Source: Candidatus Uhrbacteria bacterium
Lineage (GTDB): Bacteria > Patescibacteriota > Patescibacteriia > UBA9934
Assembly (NCBI GenBank): GCA_018664485.1
Contig: JABJOE010000009.1
Coordinates: 142,635-192,692 of the forward strand
Length of the DNA stretch: 50,058 nucleotides
Direction of reading: 5' to 3'
Shown here one piece after another: positions 1,274-50,058 of the stretch (its first letter is position 1; each line of letters opens with the position of its first letter). Both the position numbers and the translations under genes were made by a program. The notes beneath the pieces were generated by a model. That model saw only the letters and a list, made by a program, of their open reading frames with translations. It ran no database searches and was not told where the DNA came from.

Positions 1274-1409
1274 ATTTTAGAATAGTTTCGGTGAGCGGGT
1301 GGCGGGCAAGGAGACGCCAGGCGGAGCCTGGTCCGGCTTCGCCGGATACCATCACCTTAGCCGAGATCAAACAGAGGCTCCATAAGCCGATAATAGTCCG
1401 AGTGAGAGC
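1274..1409 (-). repeat. intergenic imperfect-palindrome element, copy A (begins 8 nt after the NMNAT-like stop)
   Basis: Minus-strand reading shows CGGCTTATGGAGCCTCTGTTT, GC hairpins CCGGCGAAGCCGG and CCAGGCTCCGCCTGG, GCGTCTCC, and the tail GCTCACCGAAACTATTCTAAAATGAA. The same blocks recur at 9.1-9.4, 21.2-21.4, 34.0-34.2, 37.5-37.6 and 38.46-38.50 kb. Confidence 0.75.
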
Positions 1410-1416
1410 ATTTCGA

Positions 1417-3941: not shown

Positions 3942-4015
3942 TCCCGGATCGTCTAATGGCAGGACGCCTGGTTTTGGTCCAGGTAATCGGAGTTCGAATC
4001 TCTGTCCGGGAACCA
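3942..4015 (+). tRNA. tRNA-Gln (anticodon TTG), CCA encoded
   Basis: Folded by hand. Acceptor TCCCGGA/TCCGGGA, D-stem GTCT/GGAC, anticodon stem CCTGG/CCAGG with loop TT-TTG-GT, T-arm CGGAG-TTCGAAT-CTCTG, discriminator A, then CCA. Confidence 0.9.
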
Positions 4016-4090: not shown

Positions 4091-4161
4091 AAAAATCATT
4101 TCCGGGCAGAGACTTCCCGAGCGAAGAAAGTTTACTTTCGAGAGCGAGGGTATATATCTGT
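4091..4161 (+). repeat. 71-bp direct repeat, copy 1
   Basis: Identical 71/71 to 4262-4332 (AAAAATCATTTCCGGGCAGAGACTTCCCGAGCGAAGAAAGTTTACTTTCGAGAGCGAGGGTATATATCTGT). Confidence 0.95.
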
Positions 4162-4261
4162 TTGTCGGACATAGATCCTGCCGAACGATCAAGTCGCAGA
4201 CTTGTTTAGAGTGAGGCAATATATCTGTCTGAAGGTTTTCAAACTATTTCCGTGGAATCAT

Positions 4262-4332
4262 AAAAATCATTTCCGGGCAGAGACTTCCCGAGCGAAGAAA
4301 GTTTACTTTCGAGAGCGAGGGTATATATCTGT
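4262..4332 (+). repeat. 71-bp direct repeat, copy 2
   Basis: Identical 71/71 to 4091-4161. It ends 1 nt before the stop of the 4333.. gene. Confidence 0.95.
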
Positions 4333-5223: not shown

Positions 5224-5362
5224 GGTTGCTAAGTCGTTGAGTTACTAAGTTATTGAGTTGCTTGGCGTTTTTTTGTTTTAAGTTTTGAACATTTGATCTT
5301 TATTATTTGTTTGTTACTTATTTTCTGGATACTTGGTACTTTATGATTCTTGTCTGCCATAA
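5224..5362. repeat. ~130-bp AT-rich direct repeat, copy a (upstream of the 4809..5165 gene)
   Basis: Aligns with 6243-6370 with small indels: AAGTTATTgAGTTGCTTGGCGTTTTTTTgTTTtaAGTTTTGAacATTT...ATTTGTTTG...TGGAtACTTGGT...CTGCCAtaAAC. Confidence 0.8.
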
Positions 5363-5410
5363 AACAAAGCACCCCGTCGAAAGGCCGAAGGGGGCCTGTT
5401 CGCACGGGGC
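5361..5410 (-). terminator. terminator of the 5435..6154 gene
   Basis: Minus strand reads GCCCCGTgcgaacaGGCCcccttcGGCCtttcgACGGGGTGCtttgtttt. It is preceded by the perfect 16-bp palindrome CTGTAGATATCTACAG (5418-5433). Confidence 0.65.
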
Positions 5411-5434
5411 GAGAACGCTGTAGATATCTACAGT

Positions 5435-6154
5435 CTAGCGACTGTCTACGTGCGGGTCGGGTCCGTACCAGGTGAGGATTTTCTCAACTGCCGGACGTTC
5501 CGCCAACGGTACCGTGAGGTATACGTTGGGATCACTCCAGATAGTCAGAGCGCCGTCATCGTCGATCCAGCAGACGAGAGAACTTTTTCCTTGCATGCAC
5601 GGGCGAAGGTTGTCTCCGTGAATCTGCGTCGCCTTGCGGGCGCTATGCATCATAGCCCAGCAGGTGTACCTGGCAGGCTGATCATTGGGCGACTTCCACC
5701 CTGCTTCGGCGGCTTCCCTGCATGTCCGCACGTCCCGATTCGAGCTACTGGGTGCATCGTTGTCGTCAGGTGCGTTGCGCCCGTACCAGGTGATATGAGG
5801 GTCGACCTCGGGGCGATCTGCAACACGAACGAATGTCCAGTCAACATGGCTGCTCCAGATATACAGCCCACCCTTGTGCAGCTCGTTCTTCTCAACCCAG
5901 CATGCATTCGGCAGACCTCCATGTTCGCACGGGTAGAGATCATCTCCAGCAACATGTTTCTGGTTTCGGGCGGTTCGCATCTTGTTCGCACAGACACGCT
6001 CAGCTGGAATCGTGGTCGACAATCCCCAACCATCCTCAACGGCATCTGCACATTTCTGTGCGTCAGCCTTTGCGGTAGCCTCACGCTCCGCGGTCCTGTC
6101 TTTGTCTCCGCAGGCGAACATCATGACCAACAGGCCGGAAAGAAACAACTTCAT
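5435..6154 (-). CDS. hypothetical lipoprotein with an internal tandem duplication (~100 aa x2)
   Basis: SD GAGGGAG lies 5 nt before ATG 6152-6154. MKLFLSGLLVMMFAC is lipobox-like. The two halves share C..A.E.GW...PA...C...M..AR...GD.L.PC..G...CW....IWS....RP.V...TWYG. About 58 G+C per 100 nt by hand count. Confidence 0.75.
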   Translation of the reverse strand: MKLFLSGLLVMMFACGDKDRTAEREATAKADAQKCADAVEDGWGLSTTIPAERVCANKMRTARNQKHVAGDDLYPCEHGGLPNACWVEKNELHKGGLYIWSSHVDWTFVRVADRPEVDPHITWYGRNAPDDNDAPSSSNRDVRTCREAAEAGWKSPNDQPARYTCWAMMHSARKATQIHGDNLRPCMQGKSSLVCWIDDDGALTIWSDPNVYLTVPLAERPAVEKILTWYGPDPHVDSR

Positions 6155-6206
6155 CACTACTCCCTCAGGTCGGCGGAACTGCCATACCCAGTCAAAAGAC
6201 AGCTCA

Positions 6207-6234
6207 AATTATCACAAAAATGCCTTCATGTCAA
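6207..6234 (-). promoter_or_regulatory. promoter of the 5435..6154 gene
   Basis: Minus strand reads TTGACA (6229-6234), a 16-nt spacer ending in TGTG, then ATAATT (6207-6212). Confidence 0.6.
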
Positions 6235-6242
6235 TAGAATGA

Positions 6243-6370
6243 GAGTCGCTGAGTAATTAAGTTATTAAGTCGCTTGGCGTTTTTTTATTTGAAGTTTTGA
6301 GTATTTAATATTTGTTTGGTTCTTGCTTCTTGGACACTTGGTTCTTCGTGCCCCTTACCTGCCACTAACC
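6243..6370. repeat. ~130-bp AT-rich direct repeat, copy b (upstream of the 5435..6154 gene)
   Basis: See 5224-5362. It contains 8-bp-spaced TGAGT/TAAGT units. Confidence 0.8.
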
Positions 6371-6443
6371 ACGGATCCACACCTCATATCACCCAAAACA
6401 AACAAGCGTGCTAAAATATATCCGTAATTTATTATTCTTTTTT

Positions 6444-9115: not shown

Positions 9116-9236
9116 GAATGAGTCGAGATATTCGAGTTTAATTTCGGCTAACAGACAGCAGTCGAGGCCTGGTCCGGCTCCGCCGGATACTCTCGCTGTA
9201 AACAGAGGCCCCATAAGCCAAAAGTGGTCCAACTAA
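9116..9236 (-). repeat. intergenic palindrome element, copy B2
   Basis: Minus strand reads GTTGGACCACTTTTGGCTTATGGGGCCTCTGTTTA + TATCCGGCGGAGCCGGACCAGGCC + GCCGAAATTAAACTCGAATATCTCG. The 36-nt block 9200-9235 matches 9361-9396 at 34/36. Confidence 0.8.
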
Positions 9237-9240
9237 CCAG

Positions 9241-9397
9241 AACTTTGATATTCGAGGTTAGTTTAGGTGAACGGGTGGCATAATAGGGATTTAGATAGTT
9301 GAGATCAATTTTGGTGCATGGAGATGTTTTGTCGAGACGTACCTACAGTACGTTGAGGCTAAACAGAGGCTCCATAAGCCGAAAGTGGTCCAACTAG
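9241..9397 (-). repeat. intergenic palindrome element, copy B1 (starts at the stop codon of the upstream gene)
   Basis: Minus strand reads TAGCTAGTTGGACCACTTTCGGCTTATGGAGCCTCTGTTTAGCCTCAACGTACtgtagGTACGTCTCGAC...CTCCATGCACCAAAATTGATCTCAAC. Confidence 0.8.
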
Positions 9398-10744
9398 CTA
9401 GATCCCAGGGGTTACAATCATTGTTCCACGTATCATCCCCATTGAACAACTAAACGTAAACCTCCCAGTCTCTGTAGGAGTGAACTGAACAAGATTTTTA
9501 CCCGTACGTAAATTTTCATTTACACCGAACGCGGGCAAGATCAACGTATCTCCACATCCCATGTAATCATCTCCGTTAATCGTCCAGTCAACCGGAATTC
9601 CCTCCTGTACCGTAAGCGTGCTCGGACTATATCTCCCACGACTCGTCATATCCATTTCAATCTGTTGACGACCATCTACCAGAACTATATCTGCAGCTTC
9701 TTCCTGCGTGACATCTGAAGCAAATACAGTATCTGGACTAATACCGAGTAAAGTCATTCCGTTTGTTACGTTACTGATCCCCAATATAAGAACGATTACT
9801 CCGGCAAACTGAGTTACCTTCTTGAGAGTATCTCCAGACGCATACGATGTAGCGCCACCAATACCAAGAAGTACTGGAGCTGTTCCAATAGCAAATATCG
9901 CCATCACCATCCCAGACTGGATTGGATCTTGAAGTGTAAGCGCAAATAACTGCATAGACTGCGTGAATCCGCACGGTAGAAAGAATGTCATTGCACCGAG
10001 AGCCATCGGAGCTTTCGGGTCCTTAGATTCAGCCAAGTCATGCACTTTATGCGCTAGCCATTTCGGCATACTAATAACATTCGAAGGAAAAACACCCATC
10101 AAATTGACTCCGATTGCAATCATCATCAAAGCAACGATAACAACGAATATTCCGTTTAACGCTGGACTCAATTGAAGTGCTGACCCTGCATAACCAATAA
10201 CGGCACCAAACGCAAAGAACCCAAGGACTCGTCCAAGGTTAAATAGTATATGTGGCTGGAATCTCTCCCTTGGAGTCATGCCCTCCTGATCTTTTGCAAC
10301 GGCACTACTGACAGCCGCGACCAATCCACCGACTACCGCGGTACACGATGACAACGACGCAATCACACCGATTATCAGAATCCCCACAAGGCTTGCAGGA
10401 GCAGCTGATGAAGGACTTAATCGCAATACTCCAAGTCGGTCTAAAATTATATAGAGCGACAATACGAATACCGCAGCCGCACCAACGCGCTGCCAATTTA
10501 TTCTCGGTTTTTTCTTGTTACCTCCTTTATCTTTTTTACCGACATGATAATCATGCTTTTCAAGGAAGGCGGTCAATTCATGATGAGTGTATCTGCGGTC
10601 CCCTGTTGTCTCAAGTTGAATCTGTCTTTTACTGTGAGAAACATCGACCGACACAATATCCGGTTGCCTCTTTAACTCCCGCTCAATAACGACTTCGCAA
10701 CTCTTACAGGTGGTGCCGCGAACGAAAAATTGTTGTCTTGCCAT
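9398..10744 (-). CDS. HMA domain / multi-TM (TauE/DsbD-like) / C-terminal cupredoxin-like fusion protein
   Basis: N-terminal GTTCKSCEVVIE (CxxC), about 6-7 hydrophobic spans including FFLPCGFTQS, and a C-terminal beta-rich region ending FSCSMGMIRGTMIVTPGI. Confidence 0.75.
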   Translation of the reverse strand: MARQQFFVRGTTCKSCEVVIERELKRQPDIVSVDVSHSKRQIQLETTGDRRYTHHELTAFLEKHDYHVGKKDKGGNKKKPRINWQRVGAAAVFVLSLYIILDRLGVLRLSPSSAAPASLVGILIIGVIASLSSCTAVVGGLVAAVSSAVAKDQEGMTPRERFQPHILFNLGRVLGFFAFGAVIGYAGSALQLSPALNGIFVVIVALMMIAIGVNLMGVFPSNVISMPKWLAHKVHDLAESKDPKAPMALGAMTFFLPCGFTQSMQLFALTLQDPIQSGMVMAIFAIGTAPVLLGIGGATSYASGDTLKKVTQFAGVIVLILGISNVTNGMTLLGISPDTVFASDVTQEEAADIVLVDGRQQIEMDMTSRGRYSPSTLTVQEGIPVDWTINGDDYMGCGDTLILPAFGVNENLRTGKNLVQFTPTETGRFTFSCSMGMIRGTMIVTPGI

Positions 10745-18278: not shown

Positions 18279-18602
18279 ATGGCGCAAGTAAAATACCAAC
18301 GCCTCGACACACGAGGTCAGTGGCAATCCTACGAATCTACCGGCCACATTGCCGCACTTCGCTACCTTTCTGTGGCAACACTTACCATAGACGGTGTCGG
18401 CGAGCTGCTGGTTTACTGGGGGCTCAATGAAGAGCCAAATATAGCTACCGGGATTCTATGCCTTGAAGATAGCAATATCCATATTGAACTCCGACAATCA
18501 CGGGTAGGGATTGGCAAGTACGAGTTCATCGGCCGAGAAGCCTTCAATGACAGTCTGGGAAACATCATCCTGAAAGGCTCAATCGATATGTCAGACTCGT
18601 AA
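18279..18602 (+). CDS. hypothetical protein (107 aa)
   Basis: ATG 18279 is preceded by GGAGGG 6 nt upstream. The stop abuts the hairpin at 18602-18628. Confidence 0.6.
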
Positions 18603-18628
18603 GCGCGAGCCCCCGTGGGCCCGCGCTT
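18602..18628. repeat. 27-nt terminator hairpin, copy 1 (left boundary of the 774-bp cassette)
   Basis: AGCGCGAGCCCCCGTGGGCCCGCGCTT is identical 27/27 to 19376-19402. The similar tail TGCATG.TAA.TTT..CAAAAAA follows both copies. Confidence 0.9.
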
Positions 18629-18644
18629 CTGTGCATGTAAATTT

Positions 18645-18697
18645 CAAAAAAAGAAAACCGCCCCGACAAGGATGCCGAGGCAATCCCCTGGGACGGT
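18645..18697 (-). terminator. terminator of the 18701..19021 gene
   Basis: Minus strand reads CCGTCCC...GGGGCGGttttcttttttt. Confidence 0.6.
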
Positions 18698-18700
18698 TAG

Positions 18701-19021
18701 TTACTCCGTCTTTGTGGAAACACTCACTGCCACCTCCAGGTGACGATAAGCTCCACCGTAGTGGATTTTACGACAGAAGGAGGGATGACAGCATACCCTC
18801 TTAACAGTCACATCCACAACCTTGAGTCCTTCTTCCATTTCAATAATGGCGAAGGTACCCTCTTCAGAGTTTCCTTGAATCTCGATTTCCACCCAACGGC
18901 GTTCATCGAGATGAAGCATGACGCTTTTGGCCAGTCTACCAACCGTGGGGAAAGAGCAAATAGCCTCTCCATCAACGGTTTTCAGGATTCCATGAATGTA
19001 AATATCGACGAACTTAGCCAT
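18701..19021 (-). CDS. hypothetical protein (106 aa), cassette cargo
   Basis: ATG 19019-19021 has GGAG 5 nt upstream. It has its own promoter 220 nt upstream. About 51 G+C per 100 nt, versus 44 in nirK (hand counts). Confidence 0.65.
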   Translation of the reverse strand: MAKFVDIYIHGILKTVDGEAICSFPTVGRLAKSVMLHLDERRWVEIEIQGNSEEGTFAIIEMEEGLKVVDVTVKRVCCHPSFCRKIHYGGAYRHLEVAVSVSTKTE

Positions 19022-19242
19022 GAGGGCTCCATGGGGTCGTCGCTGCGAATGATTCCGCTGCGGCGTTGGTTTAACCCCCTACCAAACGCATTCCCGTGAC
19101 CTCTTACCAATGAGACACGGTATAAACGTATAAACTAACTTACTGAGTAATCTGGGATTTCTTTTCGGAAATTCCCGGACTTTCTAGGCCTTGCGACCTT
19201 ACGATGGTTCTTTCTTTCACTAACGTACTAGATGATTCACTG
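19022..19242 (-). promoter_or_regulatory. ~220-nt structured 5' leader
   Basis: Lies between the promoter at 19249-19277 and ATG 19021. It has several hairpins (e.g. CCGTGtctc..gaggTCACGG) and no convincing ORF. Confidence 0.45.
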
Positions 19243-19248
19243 TAAGAG

Positions 19249-19277
19249 AGTATAGCAAAAAATAGCACTTTTGTCAA
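19249..19277 (-). promoter_or_regulatory. strong sigma70-type promoter
   Basis: Minus strand reads TTGACA (19272-19277), spacer AAAGTGCTATTTTTTGC (17 nt), then TATACT (19249-19254). Confidence 0.7.
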
Positions 19278-19361
19278 GCGCCAACGAGCAGTTTTAGTCC
19301 AAAAAGCCCTTATTTTAGGCCATTTTTATACAAAGATTGTTAGGCCACTATCATCCAAAAT

Positions 19362-19402
19362 TTCAAAAAAAGAACAGCGCGAGCCCCCGTGGGCCCGCGC
19401 TT
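19362..19402 (-). terminator. nirK terminator, which is also 27-nt hairpin copy 2 (right boundary of the cassette)
   Basis: Minus strand reads AAGCGCGGGCCCacgGGGGCTCGCGCTgttcttttttt. Hairpin at 19376-19402. Confidence 0.8.
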
Positions 19403-19429
19403 GTTGCATGCTAATTTTTCCTCAAAAAA

Positions 19430-21279: not shown

Positions 21280-21398
21280 GCACTCATTTGATATCAGTAT
21301 CGGTGCGTAGAGACGTTTGACTGAGGCGTACTTACAGTACGTTGAAGTTAAACAGAGACTCTACAAGGCGATAATGATGCAAATGAGAAGTCCTACGC
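21280..21398 (-). repeat. intergenic palindrome element, copy C1 (overlaps the rplJ stop codon)
   Basis: Closed by 8-bp arms CTCATTTG (21283-21290) / CAAATGAG (21380-21387). Inner arms GTAGAG (21307-21312) / CTCTAC (21359-21364). Central hairpin CGTACttacaGTACG. Confidence 0.85.
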
Positions 21399-25990: not shown

Positions 25991-26318
25991 TTATATATCC
26001 AAAACAATCATGTCGCCTCCCCAAAAGCAAACTCCCACCGGTCCTTAAGACGGCGGGAGCGAGTGAGTGCCAGTGAGACTGGCGAGTTGGCGCCTGATAC
26101 CGGACTCGCCAGGCGGAGCCTGGTCCGGCTTCGCCGGAAACCCTTTGGTGAATAGCCGGCAAGGCAAAAGGCGGACTACTGTCCAGAAGCAGTGGCGAGG
26201 CAACCAACCTCAGTGTCCTTCGAGGGAAGGCGCATGAGCATGATGTAAGCCGCGAAAACCAACGCGGCCGTCAGCCTGATAGTCATTGACACAGTGAACA
26301 AGATTCACCTCCAATTCC
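25991..26318 (-). ncRNA. promoter/terminator-bounded GC-rich transcript (~360 nt including the terminator), function unknown
   Basis: Lies between the promoter at 26325-26353 and the terminator at 25961-25990. The 3' two-thirds is GC-rich, full of hairpins, and contains the 32-nt module shared with copy A. Confidence 0.4.
26176..26301 (-). CDS. possible 41-aa hydrophobic peptide at the 5' end of that transcript
   Basis: GGAGG (26308-26312) lies 6 nt before TTG 26299-26301. Translation: (M)FTVSMTIRLTAALVFAAYIMLMRLPSKDTEVGCLATASGQ*. Confidence 0.3.
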   Translation of the reverse strand: MFTVSMTIRLTAALVFAAYIMLMRLPSKDTEVGCLATASGQ

Positions 26319-28926: not shown

Positions 28927-28942
28927 CCTCCTAGCTCTCAAG
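28927..28942 (-). promoter_or_regulatory. conserved leader/SD block, copy 1
   Basis: Minus strand CTTGAGAGCTAGGAGG is identical 16/16 to 29248-29263. Confidence 0.7.
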
Positions 28943-29036
28943 TCCGTTCAACACCTTATGCATTGCTCGGGCTAATTGAGTCACCGTCCGTGGACGGTGC
29001 GCGGTGCCGGGAGATTGAATCCGGCTACTATACTTC

Positions 29037-29247: not shown

Positions 29248-29263
29248 CCTCCTAGCTCTCAAG
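29248..29263 (-). promoter_or_regulatory. conserved leader/SD block, copy 2
   Basis: See 28927-28942. Confidence 0.7.
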
Positions 29264-29409
29264 CGCGATCAGCACAGGGTGTGTCGATCGGGCCAGTTAA
29301 GCCCCGGTCTGCGCATATGCAGACCGAGAGTTCCGTCGTAGTGCATTTAAGCACCCACACATATCAGTGTGACCAAGTTTGTTACTTGGATTTATAGAAT
29401 CTACTTGAA

Positions 29410-29733
29410 TCAAGTCAGCTGAACAACACTTGTCAAATCGGTGACCGTGAAGATCTCACAGAGCTTCGGATCCGCAAAGTCAGGGAACTTACGAAGCACC
29501 ACCGACATATCTCCTTCTTCGAAGCGTCTCTTGAGATCGCCCTTAGCCCCCTCATCGCTGAATGGCATGGCGATCACTGCGCGAGTTCCGTATCCATTCC
29601 AGCGATGCTTCCAGATGAGAAAGCTCACACCGTTCCGCCTGATGAAGCCCCCAGGACACCAGCCGTGGTGCGAGGTCTGTCCGAACATATTCCACACGAA
29701 TTCATTGAGCATGGCGAACTCCTTTGTTGCCAT
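29410..29733 (-). CDS. hypothetical protein (107 aa)
   Basis: ORF track. It has its own promoter 285 nt upstream. Higher GC. Confidence 0.6.
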   Translation of the reverse strand: MATKEFAMLNEFVWNMFGQTSHHGWCPGGFIRRNGVSFLIWKHRWNGYGTRAVIAMPFSDEGAKGDLKRRFEEGDMSVVLRKFPDFADPKLCEIFTVTDLTSVVQLT

Positions 29734-30019
29734 TTTGGGACAGATTATCCCTTATCAAATCACCAATACATGATGCCCTGATAAGGGGTCCGCACACGCC
29801 GTAATAAACGATCTGTGTGCGGAAAGGTTGGGTCTTTCTTCGTCCTTCAGCAGCGACCCTGACGAATTCCAAAGGAATCGATCGTCAGATTTGCTTCCAG
29901 CCAGAAAGACCCATGTTCAAATCCCGCGAGTGATCGTGGGAGAACATGGGTCCTCATGTTTCCGTCTACTTTAAGGCGAGACAGGTGGCCTTTCGAACAT
30001 GAAAGTACTTACCTTTGAT
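29734..30019 (-). promoter_or_regulatory. ~285-nt highly structured 5' leader
   Basis: Long hairpins include GACCCATGTTC...GAACATGGGTC, GACGAtcgattcctttggaatTCGTC and CCGCACAC...GTGTGCGG. Confidence 0.45.
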
Positions 30020-30025
30020 ATATCT

Positions 30026-30054
30026 ATAATAGCACAAAATCGCCCTTTTGTCAA
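30026..30054 (-). promoter_or_regulatory. strong sigma70-type promoter
   Basis: Minus strand reads TTGACA (30049-30054), spacer AAAGGGCGATTTTGTGC (17 nt), then TATTAT (30026-30031). Near-twin of the 19249-19277 promoter. Confidence 0.7.
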
Positions 30055-34028: not shown

Positions 34029-34203
34029 CTGTAGTTAGTCTGAGCGAGCGATCGTTCGGGCTGGCTATCTTCTTAGATCATTCGATGCATGCTGTAGACG
34101 AAAATGACAAAGGGTGACGAAACATAGTAGTGCTACGTTGAGGAACCATTGGACATTTGCAGACACAGCAGGCGCGAATGAGGCAAGGATATAGTTAGTC
34201 TGA
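34029..34203 (-). repeat. intergenic palindrome element, copy F, flanked by a duplicated gene end
   Basis: TAGTTAGTCTGA at 34032-34043 and 34192-34203 (offset 160). The interior has CCTCAACGTA, CGTCTAC and GCATCGAATGATCTAAG blocks of the family (minus-strand reading). Confidence 0.7.
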
Positions 34204-35589
34204 ACGATCACCTACCGCCCAATTCCGCAGCAACCACGTAGCACGAACATCGTCCTCGTTATAATCAATCGTATCTTGCAGCGCTTGTTCGTCTTTATTA
34301 TCCAAAAACTCGTGATACCACACAACCGAATTCTGCCCAGAAGCCTCAGGATGACGCCAAGAAAATCCAAGATACTTTGCAACATCTTTAAGCGAATAGA
34401 ATGACAACGGGAAGATCACACTCTCACGCAATCGAGGTAGCACATCTACCATACGTTCTTCGAACTGCTTTGCAATCCGATCTGGCACTCCGTACTTTAC
34501 TCCCATTCGTCTAAATACATCCAACTCATACCAACCATAGTGATACATCCGAGCATCTGGATAATCATCAATGAAGAGCAAGAATTCCTGCCACATCCTA
34601 CCCTCTTCCTCGGGAGTACGTGCCAAAAATGGAATATATTCTTCAACGTCACCGTTAATGCGTAGTACACCGATCAAATAATGTATGTCGCGTAATGGGT
34701 CGCTTTCAATATCAATCACTAGAACTACTCCATTCTCTGGCGGCAAATCAACAGGCCCTACAAAAATAACTTTGTTTTCTTTCAAAGATTCTGCCTGCTT
34801 CTGCAAAAATAGCGCACGGTCTTTTGTAACACCTGGAATCGCTTTGATCTGCTTTTCAGGAGCTTCCGCTAAATCAGTAACCGTATTTATAGACACTGCC
34901 TTAAGCGCATCCATCTCACTTCGCCATATACGATTAATAAGTGAAAGATGATCACATTCCTGAACTTCTTTGTGAAGTTTTTGGAACCACGGAGAATTCT
35001 TTGCAGCTGATGTTAAAAATGGTTCCGGCCGCTCACCGTCAACGATCCTCTCAATGTCATCAAGAGTAAGACGATAGTTCGCGTACACCTCATCGATTAA
35101 ATAACCCTCAACAACTCGATCAGCTCGCATCACATAACCTTGTACAGGTCGCAGTCCCTGAATCTCTTTTAATATATCTGCGTAAAAAGCTCCTTGGAAT
35201 CTATATTCATCCTTAAGATGGCGAGATCGTTTAATGTCGCATGCAACATAATAATAATCTCCCAGTTTAGAATCACCCTCAACACGCTCTAGAATATCTG
35301 GCTGTGCTACATGACGGCCATGCATAAGAACGCCACGATAGATAGTCTCGACCCCTTTCGCCATGAGCTCAAGGGTTTTTACAGAAGCTTCATCCAAATC
35401 AGGCAAATCGACCTCCTCTACTTTTCTATCCGAAAGTAGGATGCGAGCCTGTTCTTTTATCAAGCCCTCGTCTTGAAGCAGTTTAATGAGTGGCACGCGG
35501 ATATCTTCACCCTCCTGTGCTTCGTGATACAACCACGTTGGACACTTCATGTACTGATAAAAGGCGTGCTGGGTAATACGTTTTGACAT
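34195..35589 (-). CDS. RecB-like (PD-(D/E)xK, TM0106-type) nuclease fused to an RNase-H-like exonuclease domain, apparently leaderless
   Basis: Start MSKRITQHAFYQYMKCPTWLYH at 35587-35589. YYYVACDIKRS (nuclease core) and LVIDIESDP (DEDD-like). TATAAT lies 6 nt upstream of the ATG. Confidence 0.75.
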   Translation of the reverse strand: MSKRITQHAFYQYMKCPTWLYHEAQEGEDIRVPLIKLLQDEGLIKEQARILLSDRKVEEVDLPDLDEASVKTLELMAKGVETIYRGVLMHGRHVAQPDILERVEGDSKLGDYYYVACDIKRSRHLKDEYRFQGAFYADILKEIQGLRPVQGYVMRADRVVEGYLIDEVYANYRLTLDDIERIVDGERPEPFLTSAAKNSPWFQKLHKEVQECDHLSLINRIWRSEMDALKAVSINTVTDLAEAPEKQIKAIPGVTKDRALFLQKQAESLKENKVIFVGPVDLPPENGVVLVIDIESDPLRDIHYLIGVLRINGDVEEYIPFLARTPEEEGRMWQEFLLFIDDYPDARMYHYGWYELDVFRRMGVKYGVPDRIAKQFEERMVDVLPRLRESVIFPLSFYSLKDVAKYLGFSWRHPEASGQNSVVWYHEFLDNKDEQALQDTIDYNEDDVRATWLLRNWAVGDRSD

Positions 35590-35639: not shown

Positions 35640-35696
35640 CCAGCAATACGCAACCCGGTTGCGTATTTATCTGAAAACCAGAAACCGCCCACACCA
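35640..35696. repeat. 57-bp direct repeat, downstream copy (right after the cassette cargo)
   Basis: Aligns gap-free to 36410-36466 at an offset of 770, about 49/57 identical. It contains the hairpin AATACGCAAcccggTTGCGTATT and GAAACCGCCC. Confidence 0.9.
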
Positions 35697-35732
35697 CGAG
35701 GGATGCAGACGGTAACGATGAGCCCAGGCGGG

Positions 35733-36332
35733 CTAGAGAAACAGGTGAACTCGGACGAAGGTCTCGGACGCCGCACCGTCTTCCGCAAAGCGGACGCGCA
35801 CAGTCGTATCGAGGCCAAAGTATCCGGACTCAGACCGCAGAAGGATGTTCGGACCAGCTCCCACGCTGCTCGTCGCAGCAAAGTCGGTCAAGCCGCCATA
35901 GCCCTCGTACTCGGCGCCGATGTGAATATAGTCCGTGAGCTTGCGCTCCCACTGGCCGAAAGCATAGAAAGACCAGCTCTGCGGCTGAACTTCGAAATCG
36001 AACCAGCCGTAGCTGCTCTCGACATTGGGGTACAAGCGCAGTGCCGTGATGACCTCGTTGCTTCCGAAAGCATATCCTACTGTCGGTCGCACGCCCATCC
36101 ACTCAGGGCCAAGGCCCGTAAGCTCGATTACCGCTACTGGCGTGAGTCCGTCACTAGTCTTCGCCAGATTGGGGCTCAGAATCGCATGAGGAGCGAGCCC
36201 AATGTTCTCGGTCAGCGGAACGCTTGAGTGAATCAACAGCCGAAAACCGGCTTCCGGCAACGCATACGCGGGGGCACCCCACATAGCGAAGGCCGCCAAA
36301 ATGAACGCCATCAAACCGTGTACTCGATGCAT
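35733..36332 (-). CDS. secreted beta-strand-rich protein (outer-membrane beta-barrel-like), cassette cargo
   Basis: SD GGGAGGG before ATG 36330-36332. Signal MHRVHGLMAFILAAFAMWGAPAYA. Alternating hydrophobic pattern (YIHIGAEYEGY, TVRVRFAEDG, TFVRVHLFL). 59 G+C in 100 nt by hand count. Confidence 0.75.
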   Translation of the reverse strand: MHRVHGLMAFILAAFAMWGAPAYALPEAGFRLLIHSSVPLTENIGLAPHAILSPNLAKTSDGLTPVAVIELTGLGPEWMGVRPTVGYAFGSNEVITALRLYPNVESSYGWFDFEVQPQSWSFYAFGQWERKLTDYIHIGAEYEGYGGLTDFAATSSVGAGPNILLRSESGYFGLDTTVRVRFAEDGAASETFVRVHLFL

Positions 36333-36366
36333 GATCCCTCCCGGGTGTGAGTTGCAAGGAGAGATG

Positions 36367-36394
36367 AACTTAGCACTTTTCCCCCTTTTGTCAA
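36367..36394 (-). promoter_or_regulatory. cassette promoter
   Basis: Minus strand reads TTGACA (36389-36394), a 16-nt spacer, then TAAGTT (36367-36372). Confidence 0.6.
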
Positions 36395-36409
36395 CCCTAC
36401 AAACCCCTA

Positions 36410-36466
36410 CCAACAATACGCAACCCGGTTGCGTATATACCGCAAAACTAGAAACCGCCCGCGCCA
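36410..36466. repeat. 57-bp direct repeat, upstream copy (3' half of the ppiB terminator plus hairpin)
   Basis: See 35640-35696. Together with 36467-36490 it forms a complete 12-bp-stem terminator plus T-run for ppiB. Confidence 0.9.
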
Positions 36467-36515
36467 TATAGGCACGAGCGGCTTTTCTTTTCTATTTCTT
36501 CTGATTTGCCGGCAA

Positions 36516-37145
36516 CTACTTACCAGCAACGACCTTCTCTTCAATAGCCACTGTAGTCATAACATCACCAACGGCAATAGCGTCAACAACATCCATACCT
36601 TCAGTAACCTCTCCGAAAATTGTGTAAAGATGAGGTAGCGCAACGTCATCCAACATCACGAAAAACTGACTTCCGTTTGTATTTGGACCTGCGTTTGCCA
36701 TAGCAACCGTTCCACGAGTGTACTCACGGTCGTCTCCAAGCTCATCTGCGAACTTGTACCCCGGACCACCTGTACCTGTTCCGTTTGGATCTCCACCTTG
36801 GATTACAAATCCTTCTTCACGACGGTGGAATGTCAAACCATCATAGTACCCTTCACCTGCAAGGTATACGAAGTTAGAAACTGTATTAGGTGCTGTGTCT
36901 GCAAATAATGTAAACACGATGTCTCCCTTATCTGTTGTAAGGCGAATCTGCTTACCTTCGATCTGATCTGCAGCGAGTGTACCTGGAAATTCGTATGTCA
37001 TAGTTTCGTTTTGAGTTGAATCATCTTGTGTATCTTCTTGCGTCCCCTCTACTACCTCAGTGTCTTCCTGTGTTTCGTCAACAGCAGTAGAACACCCTCC
37101 TCCAACGAGCATAAGCCCGACAAATGCGTATGTGAATTTATTCAT
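36516..37145 (-). CDS. ppiB: cyclophilin-type peptidyl-prolyl isomerase, lipoprotein
   Basis: MNKFTYAFVGLMLVGGGCS lipobox. FHRREEGFVIQGGDPNGTGTGGPGYKF...GTVAMANAGPNTNGSQFFV. Confidence 0.9.
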   Translation of the reverse strand: MNKFTYAFVGLMLVGGGCSTAVDETQEDTEVVEGTQEDTQDDSTQNETMTYEFPGTLAADQIEGKQIRLTTDKGDIVFTLFADTAPNTVSNFVYLAGEGYYDGLTFHRREEGFVIQGGDPNGTGTGGPGYKFADELGDDREYTRGTVAMANAGPNTNGSQFFVMLDDVALPHLYTIFGEVTEGMDVVDAIAVGDVMTTVAIEEKVVAGK

Positions 37146-49478: not shown

Positions 49479-50058
49479 CTAGGGCGTGGTCACGGTCAAG
49501 GTCATGTTGTGACCACCTTCGTAGTCGAAGTCCGTGACGGGTTCGCCGTTCCAGGTGAACCAGACATCGCTGCAGGTGTTCGTACCGTCGAAGTAGGCCG
49601 AATCACCCTGACTCGTACACAGCGACACCATATCGTCGGTGCTGCCGCTGGAGCCGTTGTCTGCATTGAACTCGACCACGGAAGTCACGGGCGCGTTGTA
49701 GCACGCACAAACCTCCTCCTCATCGGACGCCATCGCGACATAGCTGTCGCTCTGGTTGATCCACTGGGTGAAGTCGTAGCTGCCGGTGTCCCAGGCGTAC
49801 AAGTACCAGGTTCCCGTGCTGCCCGCGATGGGCGTGCCGCACAGGTTGTGGTAGTCATAGTCTGGGTTGACGGTGCTGTCCGCATCGTTGCAGTCGTCGT
49901 AGCCGGCATAGTAGCCGTCGCCGTCGTCGTCGATGAGCTCACAGGTCAGATCGATGTCTGCGTCGTCGTCGTCGCAGTCCTCGTCGTCGCCGTCGAAGTC
50001 GCCGTCGCCGTCGATGTCACAGTCGGTCTCGGAAACGGAGGTCGAAGCCTCGTCTCCG
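49479..50058 (-). CDS. C-terminal part of a high-GC, Asp/Cys-rich secreted-type protein (5' end beyond the window)
   Basis: The frame is open from the window end. Translation: ...DCDIDGDGDFDGDDEDCDDDDADIDLTCELIDDDGDGYYAGYDDCNDADSTVNPDYDYHNLCG...TLTVTTP*. The track shows only 49479..49802 (TTG start). 60 G+C in 100 nt by hand count. Confidence 0.75.
   Translation of the reverse strand, partial: GDEASTSVSETDCDIDGDGDFDGDDEDCDDDDADIDLTCELIDDDGDGYYAGYDDCNDADSTVNPDYDYHNLCGTPIAGSTGTWYLYAWDTGSYDFTQWINQSDSYVAMASDEEEVCACYNAPVTSVVEFNADNGSSGSTDDMVSLCTSQGDSAYFDGTNTCSDVWFTWNGEPVTDFDYEGGHNMTLTVTTP

What the first reader, a model, noticed from the sequence alone, without database searches (positions are those of the whole stretch)
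35640..36466. 770-bp high-GC single-gene cassette bracketed by 57-bp direct repeats that duplicate a terminator tail plus hairpin
Seen: 35640-35696 and 36410-36466 align without gaps at a constant offset of 770 nt, about 49/57 identical by hand. The repeat includes the hairpin AATACGCAAcccggTTGCGTATT (9-bp stem in the left copy, 8 bp in the right) and GAAACCGCCC. The right copy, together with 36467-36490, forms the complete rho-independent terminator of ppiB. The left copy lacks that 5' half. Between the copies lie a host-type promoter (TTGACA-N16-TAAGTT), an SD, one signal-peptide protein gene (35733-36332) and nothing else. Hand GC counts are 59/100 in the cargo and 43/100 in ppiB. Inference: a promoter-plus-gene module was inserted at the terminator/hairpin site, leaving attL/attR-like repeats. 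57 bp is far too long for a transposase target duplication, and no recombinase is in the window. The unit is almost the same size as a second case at 18.6-19.4 kb.
Basis: partly seen in the sequence, partly recalled or inferred. Interest (0 to 1): 0.75.

Follow-up and report, generated by a model that had tools for sequence, protein, structure and literature searches.

The report
Foreign one-gene cassette at a terminator hairpin
A small foreign gene carrying its own strong promoter was inserted between two core genes of a tiny-genome (Patescibacteria) bacterium, so a terminator-plus-hairpin now sits on both sides of it; several similar cassettes exist in the same genome, but how they move is unknown.

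Summary
Windows 35640-35696 and 36410-36466 are 57-nt direct repeats (49/57 identical, offset 770). They bracket a GC-rich gene (GC3 0.68, against a host mean of 0.40).

The closest sequenced relative (nuclease 85% identical) has an empty site: PPIase gene, one terminator, one hairpin, nuclease gene. So this is a lineage-specific insertion.

- Both repeat copies belong to complete intrinsic terminators. The left copy does have a 5' arm.
- The hairpin is not specific to these junctions. It is a dispersed repeat of this ~1-Mb "Candidatus Uhrbacteria" genome, with at least 6 further loci, 5 of them next to other GC-rich genes.

The window holds four such cassettes. All four share a perfect TTGACA plus TGnTA promoter, which no host gene in the window has. 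Three of the four have 50-130-nt flanking repeats.

The cargo is a secreted beta-barrel protein of a small family whose only named members are Patescibacteria proteins.

The window contains no recombinase or transposase gene.

Best reading: an incoming cassette recombined at or beside the resident terminator-hairpin module, in an integron- or Campbell-like way. This mechanism is inferred, not shown. No presence/absence polymorphism was seen.

The parts
36516..37145 (-). Upstream neighbour: a cyclophilin-type peptidyl-prolyl isomerase gene ('ppiB') with an N-terminal lipoprotein-like signal.
   Evidence: Matches Pfam PF00160 at E = 7.5e-41. It is syntenic with the nuclease gene in 17 relatives.
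36452..36484 (-). Intrinsic terminator of the PPIase gene (here called T_up). The scan reports a 14-pair stem; the core arms are GCCGCTCGTGCC / GGCGCGGGCGG, with a TATAT loop and then a T-rich tail.
   Evidence: Terminator scan. RNA fold gives -41.2 kcal/mol, z = -4.8. The 5' arm matches the L031 arm at 10 of 12 positions.
36410..36466 (.). Right copy (PPIase side) of the 57-nt direct repeat. It comprises the terminator 3' arm, the U-tract, a spacer and the hairpin.
36415..36437 (.). Right copy of the hairpin HP: a palindrome with a 9-10-bp stem and a 3-nt loop.
   Evidence: The same 21-mer occurs at 6 other loci of this genome.
36367..36394 (-). Cassette promoter: TTGACA, a 16-nt spacer, then TG-c-TAAGTT (perfect -35 box plus extended -10).
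   Evidence: Sequence. It is one of only 4 matches to TTGACA-N12-16-TGNTA in the window, and all 4 lie in front of GC3-elevated genes.
35733..36332 (-). Cargo gene: a 199-aa secreted protein predicted to form an all-beta barrel. GC is 0.58 and GC3 is 0.68. A Shine-Dalgarno sequence GGGAGGG lies at 36342-36336.
   Evidence: ORF. No Pfam or NCBIfam hit. 63 family representatives were found; the only named members are from Patescibacteria MAGs. AlphaFold2 with a 47-sequence alignment gives pLDDT 92.5. The best fold matches are small 12-strand porins (KdgM, TM 0.5-0.6), but the E-values are not significant.
35684..35713 (-). Intrinsic terminator behind the cargo (here called T_down). The 12-bp stem ACCGTCTGCATC / GGTGTGGGCGGT includes 4 G-U pairs, has a CCTCGT loop and is followed by TTCTGGTTTT.
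   Evidence: Terminator scan and RNA fold. The loop plus 3' arm matches the L031 terminator at 17 of 18 positions.
35640..35696 (.). Left copy (nuclease side) of the 57-nt direct repeat.
35645..35667 (.). Left copy of the hairpin HP, with a 10-bp stem.
34195..35589 (-). Downstream neighbour: a RecB-like nuclease gene (PF13482, RNase_H_2). Its TATAAT box is at 35601-35596.
   Evidence: Pfam E = 1.3e-35. Conserved next to the PPIase gene in relatives.
5232..6371 (-). Sister cassette C. Gapped direct repeats of ~130 nt at 5232-5366 and 6244-6371 are about 76% identical. Promoter at 6234-6210. Cargo at 5435-6157 is lipoprotein-like with GC3 0.635. It has its own terminator.
18602..19417 (-). Sister cassette B. 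Direct repeats of ~43-55 nt at 18602-18644 and 19376-19417 are 91% identical and contain the hairpin GCGCGAGCCCCCGTGGGCCCGCGC. Promoter at 19277-19253. Cargo at 18701-19021 is 106 aa with GC3 0.49.
29410..30054 (-). Sister cassette D, which has no flanking repeat. Promoter at 30054-30030, a long leader, and an ORF at 29410-29733 with GC3 0.648.

Best explanation
This is a horizontally acquired, self-contained expression cassette. Its parts are a consensus promoter, a leader, a Shine-Dalgarno sequence, a gene for a secreted beta-barrel protein, an intrinsic terminator and a 21-23-nt palindromic hairpin (HP). It entered the chromosome of a ~1-Mb 'Candidatus Uhrbacteria' bacterium between the PPIase gene's terminator-HP module and the nuclease promoter. 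This happened after the lineage split from its closest sequenced relative.

The 57-nt direct repeat is the 3' part of a terminator-HP module. The empty site has one such module and the filled site has two, so both the PPIase gene and the cargo end in a complete terminator plus HP.

Shown:
- the insertion;
- the foreign composition of the cargo;
- the complete terminators on both sides;
- that HP is dispersed in this genome;
- that cassettes of the same design recur.

Inferred:
- The cassette arrived as a small, probably circular DNA that already carried a terminator-HP 3' module of the same dispersed family.
- It recombined within or immediately beside the resident module. This is insertion-duplication or integron-like logic, using either an enzyme encoded elsewhere in the genome or host homologous/illegitimate recombination.
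- This left two diverged, partly hybrid modules.

The dispersed modules would thus act as portable attachment or homology sites for promoter-bearing single-gene cassettes.
For: Insertion and foreign origin:
- Relative L031 has an empty site with exactly one terminator and one HP. Synteny metK-orf262-orf98-PPIase-nuclease-C39 peptidase is conserved in relatives, and none has the cargo there.
- Cargo GC3 z-score is 7.3.
- Homologues of the cargo occur in Patescibacteria. One sits natively in a 60%-GC contig. Others are again GC-rich single genes in lower-GC genomes: L058 0.53 against 0.39, and L054 0.57 against 0.50.

The hairpin as a dispersed element:
- HP occurs at 6 further loci whose genes lie on the same 986-kb contig.
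- 5 of those 6 loci adjoin GC-rich patches.

A recurring cassette format:
- L050 carries promoter module, signal-peptide ORF, terminator and HP. Its promoter is 90% identical to that of cassette D, and its terminator 5' arm begins TTACCGTC like T_down.
- In L048/L060 two tandem cassettes share a 159-nt 3' module (92.5% identical, starting 13 nt before the stop codon) and a 95-nt promoter/leader (76% identical). Their ORF bodies are unrelated.
- All 4 matches to TTGACA-N12-16-TGNTA in the window are cassette promoters.

Mosaic pattern against L031:
- L031-like states sit on the PPIase-side copy for the 5' flank and 5' arm. They sit on the nuclease-side copy for the loop, 3' arm and tail, at about 10 sites against 1 inside the 57-mer.
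- A crossover between a resident and an incoming module predicts this pattern.
Against: - No recombinase, integrase or transposase gene lies in the 50-kb window.
- No circular form or empty-site allele appears among 17 population contigs; all are identical to the window.
- The inferred crossover point, at the boundary of the 5' arm and the loop, lies outside the 57-nt stretch of sequence similarity. That argues against simple RecA-type recombination.
- Both copies show specific similarity to the single L031 module. This fits a plain local duplication equally well.
- The mosaic rests on one outgroup and about 15 sites, some of which are not independent.
- The repeats of cassettes B and C do not contain HP, and cassette D has no repeat at all, so HP cannot be a universal site.
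- The 23 nt of identity at HP is short for homologous recombination.
Confidence: 0.5

Rival explanations
1. Target duplication made at the moment of insertion. Foreign promoter-plus-gene DNA was inserted through breaks staggered by ~57-75 bp, or by replication template switching (leave after the hairpin, copy foreign DNA, re-enter before the terminator). The local terminator-HP module was therefore copied, and the two copies then diverged.
For: - The empty site has one module and the filled site has two.
- Both copies resemble the L031 module specifically, and both share derived states against L031: the hairpin AAC/GTT and the tail TTTCTRGTTTT.
- Three cassettes in the window have flanking repeats of local-looking sequence with different lengths.
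- No similarity extends beyond the repeat on either side.
Against: - Inside the 57-mer nearly all changes relative to L031 are on one copy (about 10 against 1). Equal ageing of two copies would not produce this.
- In L048 a 123-nt repeat that is 98% identical abuts a hairpin region with 5 differences in the 21-nt hairpin (about 9 over ~30 nt by eye). This is not uniform divergence.
- The module is a member of a dispersed family: the L050 module is almost as similar to either window copy as the two copies are to each other.
- No known bacterial enzyme makes 57-130-bp staggered cuts (from general knowledge).
Confidence: 0.25
2. A two-step origin. The terminator-HP module was first duplicated in tandem, for example by slippage. 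The promoter-plus-gene DNA later landed between the two copies by illegitimate recombination.
For: This genome does carry intergenic tandem duplications: 71-nt repeats that are 100% identical and 171 nt apart at 4091-4332, and ~230-nt tandem units each with a hairpin in L041.
Against: - It needs the same coincidence three times in one window (cassettes A, B and C) and again in L048.
- L031 has a single module.
- It does not explain why the cassettes share a promoter type.
Confidence: 0.1
3. Hairpin-directed single-strand transposition. A non-autonomous IS200/IS605-like or REP/RAYT-type element is mobilised in trans by an HUH Y1 transposase that recognises the hairpin.
For: - HP is a dispersed palindromic element, like REP sequences.
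- Relative L035 carries two IS200/RAYT-like genes flanked by hairpin-containing repeats.
- HP copies in direct orientation flank the cargo.
Against: - No Y1 transposase homologue is in the window.
- The empty site already contains HP and the terminator. IS200/IS605 elements carry their hairpins with them and make no target duplication (from general knowledge).
- The repeat extends 34 nt beyond the hairpin.
- Cassettes B, C and D lack HP.
Confidence: 0.08
4. An ancient native gene plus local duplication with no horizontal transfer, or an assembly chimera.
For: All 17 population contigs carry the same structure. The promoter resembles others in the genome.
Against: - GC3 z-score is 7.3.
- The cargo is absent from this site in all 21 relatives, including the closest.
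- Independent assemblers and samples give identical junctions.
Confidence: 0.04

Closest known systems
Integron gene cassettes, attC sites and CALINs (clusters of attC sites lacking an integrase). Properties recalled from general knowledge.
   Same: - The unit is a single gene of about 0.7-1 kb.
- A structured hairpin module lies at the 3' end of each gene.
- The modules share structure more than sequence.
- Two modules in direct orientation bracket the cassette, and one module is present at the empty site.
- In L048 adjacent cassettes share the 3' module, which even overlaps the stop codon.
   Different: - No intI gene or any integrase lies in 50 kb.
- The cassettes carry their own strong promoter, whereas integron cassettes are mostly promoterless.
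- They are scattered among core genes rather than arrayed at an attI site.
- HP is a perfect 9-10-bp palindrome without the R''/L''/L'/R' boxes or extrahelical bases. GTTGCGT misses the GTTRRRY consensus by one base.
Insertion-duplication (Campbell-type single crossover of a circle carrying a homologous segment), and Xer-dependent modules such as IMEX elements and the pdif modules of Acinetobacter plasmids. From general knowledge.
   Same: The insert is flanked by two copies of a segment that is single at the empty site. Small gene modules are bounded by short recombination sites that are dispersed in the replicon. No recombinase lies inside the module.
   Different: - The repeat copies are only 86% identical. 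The apparent exchange point lies outside the best-matching stretch.
- HP has a 3-nt centre, not the 6-8-bp spacer of Xer or other tyrosine-recombinase core sites.
- No circle has been observed.
REP/REPIN elements and their RAYT transposases (PMC8049555 abstract, seen; other details from general knowledge).
   Same: A short palindromic hairpin repeated at many intergenic sites of one genome, mostly at the 3' ends of genes. Its sequence is species-specific: L031 has the compensated variant CAC/GTG in place of AAC/GTT.
   Different: - Copy number appears low: 8 or more copies seen in ~1 Mb.
- No RAYT gene was found in the window.
- The copies are associated with foreign genes. REPINs are not known to ferry genes.
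Promoter reuse, or 'mobile promoters' (PMC3575422 abstract, seen).
   Same: Highly similar promoter sequences lie in front of unrelated genes. The promoters of cassettes B and D are 89% identical over 27 nt. The L050 and D promoters are 90% identical over 29 nt.
   Different: Here the promoter travels with a gene and a 3' module as one unit, and it marks compositionally foreign genes.
Terminator-targeting elements, such as bacterial class C group II introns and some IS elements that insert after intrinsic terminators or REP sequences. From general knowledge.
   Same: The insertion lies directly at an intrinsic terminator/hairpin.
   Different: There is no intron RNA structure, reverse transcriptase or transposase. 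Rfam finds nothing here.

Membership tests
Integron cassette / attC | A tyrosine integrase gene (intI) with an attI site next to the cassette array. | tested here: not met
   A Pfam scan of about 50 window ORFs found no Phage_integrase or other recombinase domain. The rest of the genome was not searchable.
Integron cassette / attC | An attC site of 57-141 nt with R''-L''/L'-R' boxes, R' = GTTRRRY, and extrahelical bases. | tested here: not met
   HP is a 23-nt perfect palindrome with a 3-nt loop. GTTGCGT has one mismatch to GTTRRRY. There is no second box pair.
Integron cassette / attC | Mostly promoterless cassettes arranged in an array. | tested here: not met
   The cassette has its own TTGACA/TGnTA promoter. 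It is a single cassette between core genes. Only L048 shows two in tandem.
Site-specific integrative element (attL/attR) | One att copy at the empty site and two direct copies flanking the insert. | tested here: met
   L031 has one terminator-HP module, and the window has two flanking the cargo.
Site-specific integrative element (attL/attR) | A recombinase encoded by the element or shown to act on the site. | tested here: not met
   The cargo is the only ORF in the insert, and there is no recombinase in the window. A trans-acting enzyme cannot be excluded.
Site-specific integrative element (attL/attR) | Excised circle and empty-site molecules present in the population. | not testable with these tools
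   Only assembled contigs were available, and all 17 carry the filled site. Reads could not be mapped.
IS / transposon | A transposase gene, terminal inverted repeats, and a 2-15-bp target duplication. | tested here: not met
   There is no transposase. The only inverted repeat is the hairpin itself. The repeat is 57 nt long and diverged.
IS200/IS605, PATE or REP-RAYT | A Y1 HUH transposase in the genome. Subterminal hairpins carried by the element. No target duplication. | tested here: inconclusive
   tblastn with the IS200/RAYT-like proteins of L035 finds nothing in the window. The hairpin is already present at the empty site, which argues against this family. The whole genome was not searchable.
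Dispersed REP-like repeat | The same short palindrome at many intergenic sites of one genome. | tested here: met
   There are 2 copies in the window and 6 further loci in the same sample series. Genes on 5 of those loci lie on the same 986,404-bp contig as the window's genes.
Intrinsic (rho-independent) terminator | A G+C-rich stem-loop followed by a U-tract at the 3' end of a gene. | tested here: met
   Both copies qualify: stems of 14 and 12 pairs followed by a T-rich tail, with fold z-scores of -4.8 and -3.8. Termination itself was not measured.
Horizontally transferred gene | Atypical composition, absence from the orthologous site in relatives, and homologues in other lineages. | tested here: met
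   GC3 z = 7.3. The site is empty in L031 and the cargo is absent from all 21 relatives. There are 63 family representatives, and named ones are Patescibacteria.

The most novel reading that the evidence does not exclude
Patescibacteria may possess a dispersed cassette system that works like an integron without an integron platform. In it, promoter-bearing single-gene cassettes, mostly for secreted proteins, carry a terminator-plus-hairpin 3' module. The modules are scattered behind core genes across the chromosome and serve as attachment sites. Cassettes would then be captured, duplicated and exchanged, within and between lineages of different GC content, by an enzyme encoded elsewhere or by the host recombination machinery acting on the hairpins.
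Probability: 0.2. Interest if true: 0.85.

Novelty: new variant of a known kind. Interest (0 to 1): 0.6.

Why it matters
Patescibacteria (the CPR) have tiny genomes and few recognisable mobile elements, and how they gain genes is poorly understood. This locus shows a clean, recurrent pattern. Small ready-to-express cassettes, mostly for secreted proteins, sit at terminator/hairpin modules between core genes. They share a promoter type and are often bracketed by repeated modules.

If the modules really are recombination sites, this would be a new route of gene capture in a major and mostly uncultured part of the bacterial tree. It would also give a simple sequence signature for finding recent acquisitions in MAGs: a perfect TTGACA/TGnTA promoter, a GC3 outlier, and a terminator-hairpin.

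The cargo family is of separate interest. It is a confidently predicted porin-like beta-barrel with a signal peptide, in bacteria generally thought to lack an outer membrane.

Tried and rejected
- Assembly artefact: rejected. 17 independent contigs are identical to the window.
- Integron: no integrase and no attC architecture.
- Ordinary transposon or IS: no transposase, no terminal inverted repeats, and the repeat is too long.
- IS200/RAYT: no homologue in the window, and the hairpin is present at the empty site.
- DNA-uptake-sequence pair: the 9-mer half-site occurs only inside the two hairpins in 50 kb.
- Phage origin: the hairpin is absent from viral contigs. The cargo alignment was too diverse for a viral scan.
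- Duplication of the nuclease promoter as the source of the cassette promoter: no similarity beyond the 57-mer on either side.
- Presence/absence polymorphism of the young L048 cassette: a protein look-up first suggested it. It was withdrawn because a 14-kb contig carries both cassettes identically, so the difference was in gene calling.
- Empty sites for cassettes B and C: the three closest relatives, anchored on the Cu-ATPase gene, have no conserved synteny there, so this could not be decided.
- Flanking repeats for cassette D: none found.
- Single-sequence AlphaFold model of the cargo: failed, pLDDT 31. The alignment-based model succeeded.
- Rfam: nothing at the locus.
- Literature: no description of such cassettes in CPR/Patescibacteria was found.
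Full report
**1. The observation**

The two 57-nt segments 35640-35696 and 36410-36466 align without gaps at an offset of 770 nt, with 49 of 57 positions identical. Self-blastn gives E = 8e-12. The palindrome AATACGCAAC-ccg-GTTGCGTATT occurs only at these two places in the window, where none is expected by chance. All eight mismatches of the 57-mer lie outside the hairpin.

Between the copies GC is 0.57-0.58, against 0.42-0.46 in the flanks.

The only plausible gene inside is the minus-strand ORF 35733-36332 (199 aa). It has a Sec-type signal peptide and a GGGAGGG ribosome-binding site. Its promoter is TTGACA-N16-TG-c-TAAGTT at 36394-36367. Its GC3 is 0.68, against a host mean of 0.399 (sd 0.039, 39 genes), which is z = 7.3.

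Seventeen contigs from independent assemblies (ENA, JGI, Logan) are 100% identical to the window, and seven of them cross both junctions. The structure is therefore not an assembly artefact.

**2. A correction**

It does not.

Read on the gene strand, the cargo stop codon is followed by ACCGTCTGCATC-CCTCGT-GGTGTGGGCGGT-TTCTGGTTTT. This is a 12-bp stem (four G-U pairs) plus a U-tract. The terminator scan finds it (35713-35684) and the fold supports it.

The PPIase-side copy is the 3' arm of a 14-pair terminator at 36484-36452. So the PPIase gene and the cargo each end in a complete intrinsic terminator followed about 18 nt later by the hairpin (HP). At the sequence level the similarity stops at the ends of the 57-mer on both sides.

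**3. It is an insertion**

A scan of one genome per species with the neighbouring nuclease found 21 relatives, all Patescibacteria or 'Candidatus Uhrbacteria' MAGs. The gene order metK-orf262-orf98-PPIase-nuclease-C39 peptidase is conserved, and none of the relatives has the cargo.

The closest relative, L031 (nuclease 85% identical), has an empty site. It reads: PPIase stop, terminator GCCGCCCGTACC-CTCGT-GGTGCGGGCGG, 14 nt, hairpin AATACGCCAC-cgg-GTGGCGTATT, TATAAT, nuclease start. So there is one terminator-HP module where the window has two.

L031's hairpin differs from the window's by a compensated pair (CAC/GTG against AAC/GTT).

In seven other relatives the same intergenic gap holds unrelated genes: NUDIX, HAD, deaminase, XRE, and an MFS transporter. 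The site is therefore generally variable.

**4. The organism and the wider locus**

The window's genes lie on a 986,404-bp contig. Proteins from that genome are named 'Candidatus Uhrbacteria bacterium' in NCBI.

The window is core chromosome. It encodes ribosomal proteins L10/L12 and S2, EF-Ts, glycolytic enzymes, LexA and a DinB-like polymerase. No integrase, transposase or other recombinase domain is present, and there is no IS200/RAYT homologue.

**5. The hairpin is a dispersed repeat of this genome**

An exact-pattern scan of JGI metagenome contigs found 11 stretches.
- Three are from other organisms. This is about the number expected by chance for 19 fixed bases (my estimate).
- Eight come from the same sample series as the window population and represent six distinct loci. 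None of them overlaps the window.
- Proteins encoded on five of these loci are found on the same 986-kb contig.

HP therefore has at least 8 copies in a ~1-Mb genome.

Five of the six extra loci have a GC-rich patch (0.52-0.61) directly beside HP. In most cases HP lies just past the 3' end of the GC-rich gene, in either orientation. The half-site is not over-represented on its own, so HP is not a DNA-uptake-sequence pair. HP is absent from viral contigs.

However, the dispersed copies are themselves tied to foreign genes.

**6. A family of cassettes**

Self-comparison of the window finds exactly three intergenic direct-repeat pairs at gene-size spacing:

| Cassette | Spacing | Repeat |
|---|---|---|
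| A (this finding) | 770 nt | 57 nt, 86% identical |
| B | 774 nt | 18602-18644 / 19376-19417, 43-55 nt |
| C | 1012 nt | 5232-5366 / 6244-6371, ~130 nt with gaps, ~76% identical |

The pattern TTGACA-N12-16-TGNTA (perfect -35 box plus extended -10) occurs four times in 50 kb, where 0.78 is expected. All four matches are the promoters of A, B, C and a fourth gene, D (29410-29733, GC3 z = 6.4). No host gene has this promoter. D has no flanking repeat.

Elsewhere in the same genome:
- L050 carries the same layout: promoter (90% identical to D's over 29 nt), a 140-aa signal-peptide ORF, terminator, 20 nt, then HP.
- L048/L060 carries two tandem cassettes that share a 159-nt 3' module and a 95-nt promoter/leader. 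The 3' module is 92.5% identical, begins 13 nt before the stop codon so both ORFs end in WHID, and its core 123 nt are 98% identical. The promoter/leader is 76% identical. The ORF bodies are unrelated.
- The inner hairpin copy in L048 is degraded by five G-to-A changes.

Relatives show similar single-gene units bracketed by hairpin-containing repeats. In L028 they flank a deaminase gene, in L037 an MFS transporter gene, and in L035 an IS200-like gene.

**7. The cargo**

A word-based search of 5.8 billion proteins found only the protein itself. An exhaustive HMMER search found 63 representatives of about 190-200 aa. The only named ones are hypothetical proteins of Patescibacteria MAGs. There is no Pfam or NCBIfam family.

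With a 47-sequence alignment AlphaFold2 gives a confident model (pLDDT 92.5) of an 11-12-strand beta-barrel behind the signal helix. The best structural overlaps are small porins (KdgM, TM 0.51-0.61, rmsd 3.5), but no Foldseek E-value is significant.

One homologue sits natively in a 60%-GC contig. Others are again GC-rich relative to their contigs (0.53 against 0.39, and 0.57 against 0.50). Several lie at contig ends. The family appears to move among Patescibacteria of different GC content.

**8. How the two modules arose**

Using L031 as the outgroup, the L031-like states are split between the two window copies:
- The 5' flank and 5' arm (positions 1-9) are L031-like on the PPIase-side copy.
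- The loop, 3' arm and tail (CCCTCGTGGTG..., TTTCAGA) are L031-like on the nuclease-side copy.
- Inside the 57-mer about 10 differences fall on the PPIase-side copy and 1 on the other.
- Both copies share derived states: the hairpin and TTTCTRGTTTT.

This mosaic is what a single exchange between a resident module and a similar incoming module would give. The reconstructed incoming terminator, ACCGTCTGCGCC-TATAT-GGCGCGGGCGGT, would be a good stem (10 Watson-Crick plus 2 G-U pairs, by hand). Its 5' arm begins like the terminator of the L050 cassette.

There are three weaknesses. The apparent exchange point lies outside the stretch of sequence similarity. The sites are few and partly non-independent. 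A plain duplication followed by uneven divergence cannot be excluded.

I therefore rate 'cassette-borne module recombining at or beside the resident module' as the best model (about 0.5). A target duplication made at insertion comes second (0.25). The two-step, HUH-transposition and native/artefact explanations rank lower.

**9. Comparison with known systems**

In logic the closest systems are integron cassettes and insertion-duplication or Xer-type modules. They share:
- a single-gene unit;
- a structured 3' module;
- one site when empty and two when filled;
- no enzyme inside the unit.

Membership in the integron family fails on every defining feature tested: no intI, no attC architecture, own promoter, and no array.

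HP behaves like a REP-type dispersed palindrome, but no RAYT gene was found in the part of the genome I could see. The shared promoters recall 'promoter reuse' (PMC3575422).

I found no description of such cassettes in CPR/Patescibacteria.

**10. Limits**

- Only 50 kb plus about 25 kb of other contigs of the genome could be read.
- The hairpin scan covered only JGI contigs; several short JGI contigs known to carry the hairpin were not returned.
- Only one outgroup carries the hairpin.
- No reads could be mapped, so current mobility is untested.
- Empty sites for B and C could not be found because synteny is not conserved in the nearest relatives.

**Verdict**

This is a real, lineage-specific insertion of a foreign, self-expressed single-gene cassette at a terminator/hairpin module. 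It is one of a recurrent family in this genome. The mechanism is unresolved but constrained. Interest is moderate to high.

Noticed in passing
window 36350-36382 and 35691-35712: Contig ends from independent assemblies cluster here. Five of the 17 contigs end at 36350-36382, just inside the cassette promoter/leader and next to a G5 tract in the promoter spacer. Two end at 35691-35712. In one sample the two contigs overlap by 20 nt. The cause is unknown; local heterogeneity or a coverage dip are possibilities.
   Followed up: partly
window 29410-30054: This is a fourth compositionally foreign gene (GC3 0.648, z = 6.4). It is driven by a promoter very like those of cassettes A and B, and has a ~300-nt leader. 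Downstream lie two small membrane-protein ORFs whose 62-nt upstream leaders are repeats of each other (28927-28988 and 29248-29309, 71% identical).
   Followed up: partly
window 1310-1410, 9151-9241, 9299-9402, 21288-21398, 26102-26142: A dispersed ~100-nt intergenic element occurs in 4-5 copies. It contains GCCTGGTCCGGCTTCGCCGGATAC and AAACAGAGGCTCCATAAGCCGAAAGTGGTCCAAC. There is no Rfam match. It could be a small RNA or another repeat family.
   Followed up: partly
window 4091-4161 and 4262-4332: Two 71-nt repeats are 100% identical and 171 nt apart, just downstream of tRNA-Gln (3942-4015). A third partial copy lies at 4208-4233. The perfect identity suggests a very recent duplication or conversion.
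   Followed up: no
L048 1737-1757; L041 149-169 (copies oriented with the hairpin on the + strand): Two degenerate hairpin copies differ from the consensus by five changes each, and all ten changes are transitions. In L048 all five are G to A. This suggests a deamination-like bias or targeted inactivation of inner copies.
   Followed up: partly
L024 5629-5704, L027 5503-5579, L028 5618-5710, L029 5477-5552: In four relatives a pair of 20-nt palindromes (ATGT-N12-ACAT), always 56 nt apart, sits upstream of a small XRE-type regulator gene placed before the nuclease gene. The inner sequence differs between species while the palindrome is kept. This looks like operator sites co-evolving with their repressor.
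   Followed up: no
L035 1360-2120 and 3537-4271: Two IS200/RAYT-like genes (178 and 222 aa, with the HUH motif NHYHF) are each flanked by near-identical hairpin-containing repeats. One is inserted between the nuclease and C39 peptidase genes of a relative.
   Followed up: partly
window 35733-36332 (cargo protein): The cargo is a confidently predicted porin-like beta-barrel of about 12 strands with a signal peptide. It belongs to a family whose only named members come from Patescibacteria, which are generally thought to lack an outer membrane. Where such a barrel would reside (own envelope or host membrane) is open.
   Followed up: partly
L018 4981-5101, L034 4571-4690; window 5232-5270 and 6244-6280; L041 418-434: Low-complexity (G/T)AGTT-type repeats form long inverted repeats behind the PPIase gene in two relatives and resemble the flanking repeat of cassette C. 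A 17-mer, TTGGACACTTGGTTCTT, is shared between the cassette C flank (6330-6346) and the sequence next to a hairpin in L041.
   Followed up: no
window 49480-50058: A GC-rich stretch (0.60) with 12-nt periodic GTCGTC-type repeats lies at the window edge. On the minus strand it would encode an Asp-rich protein. The ORF runs off the window.
   Followed up: no
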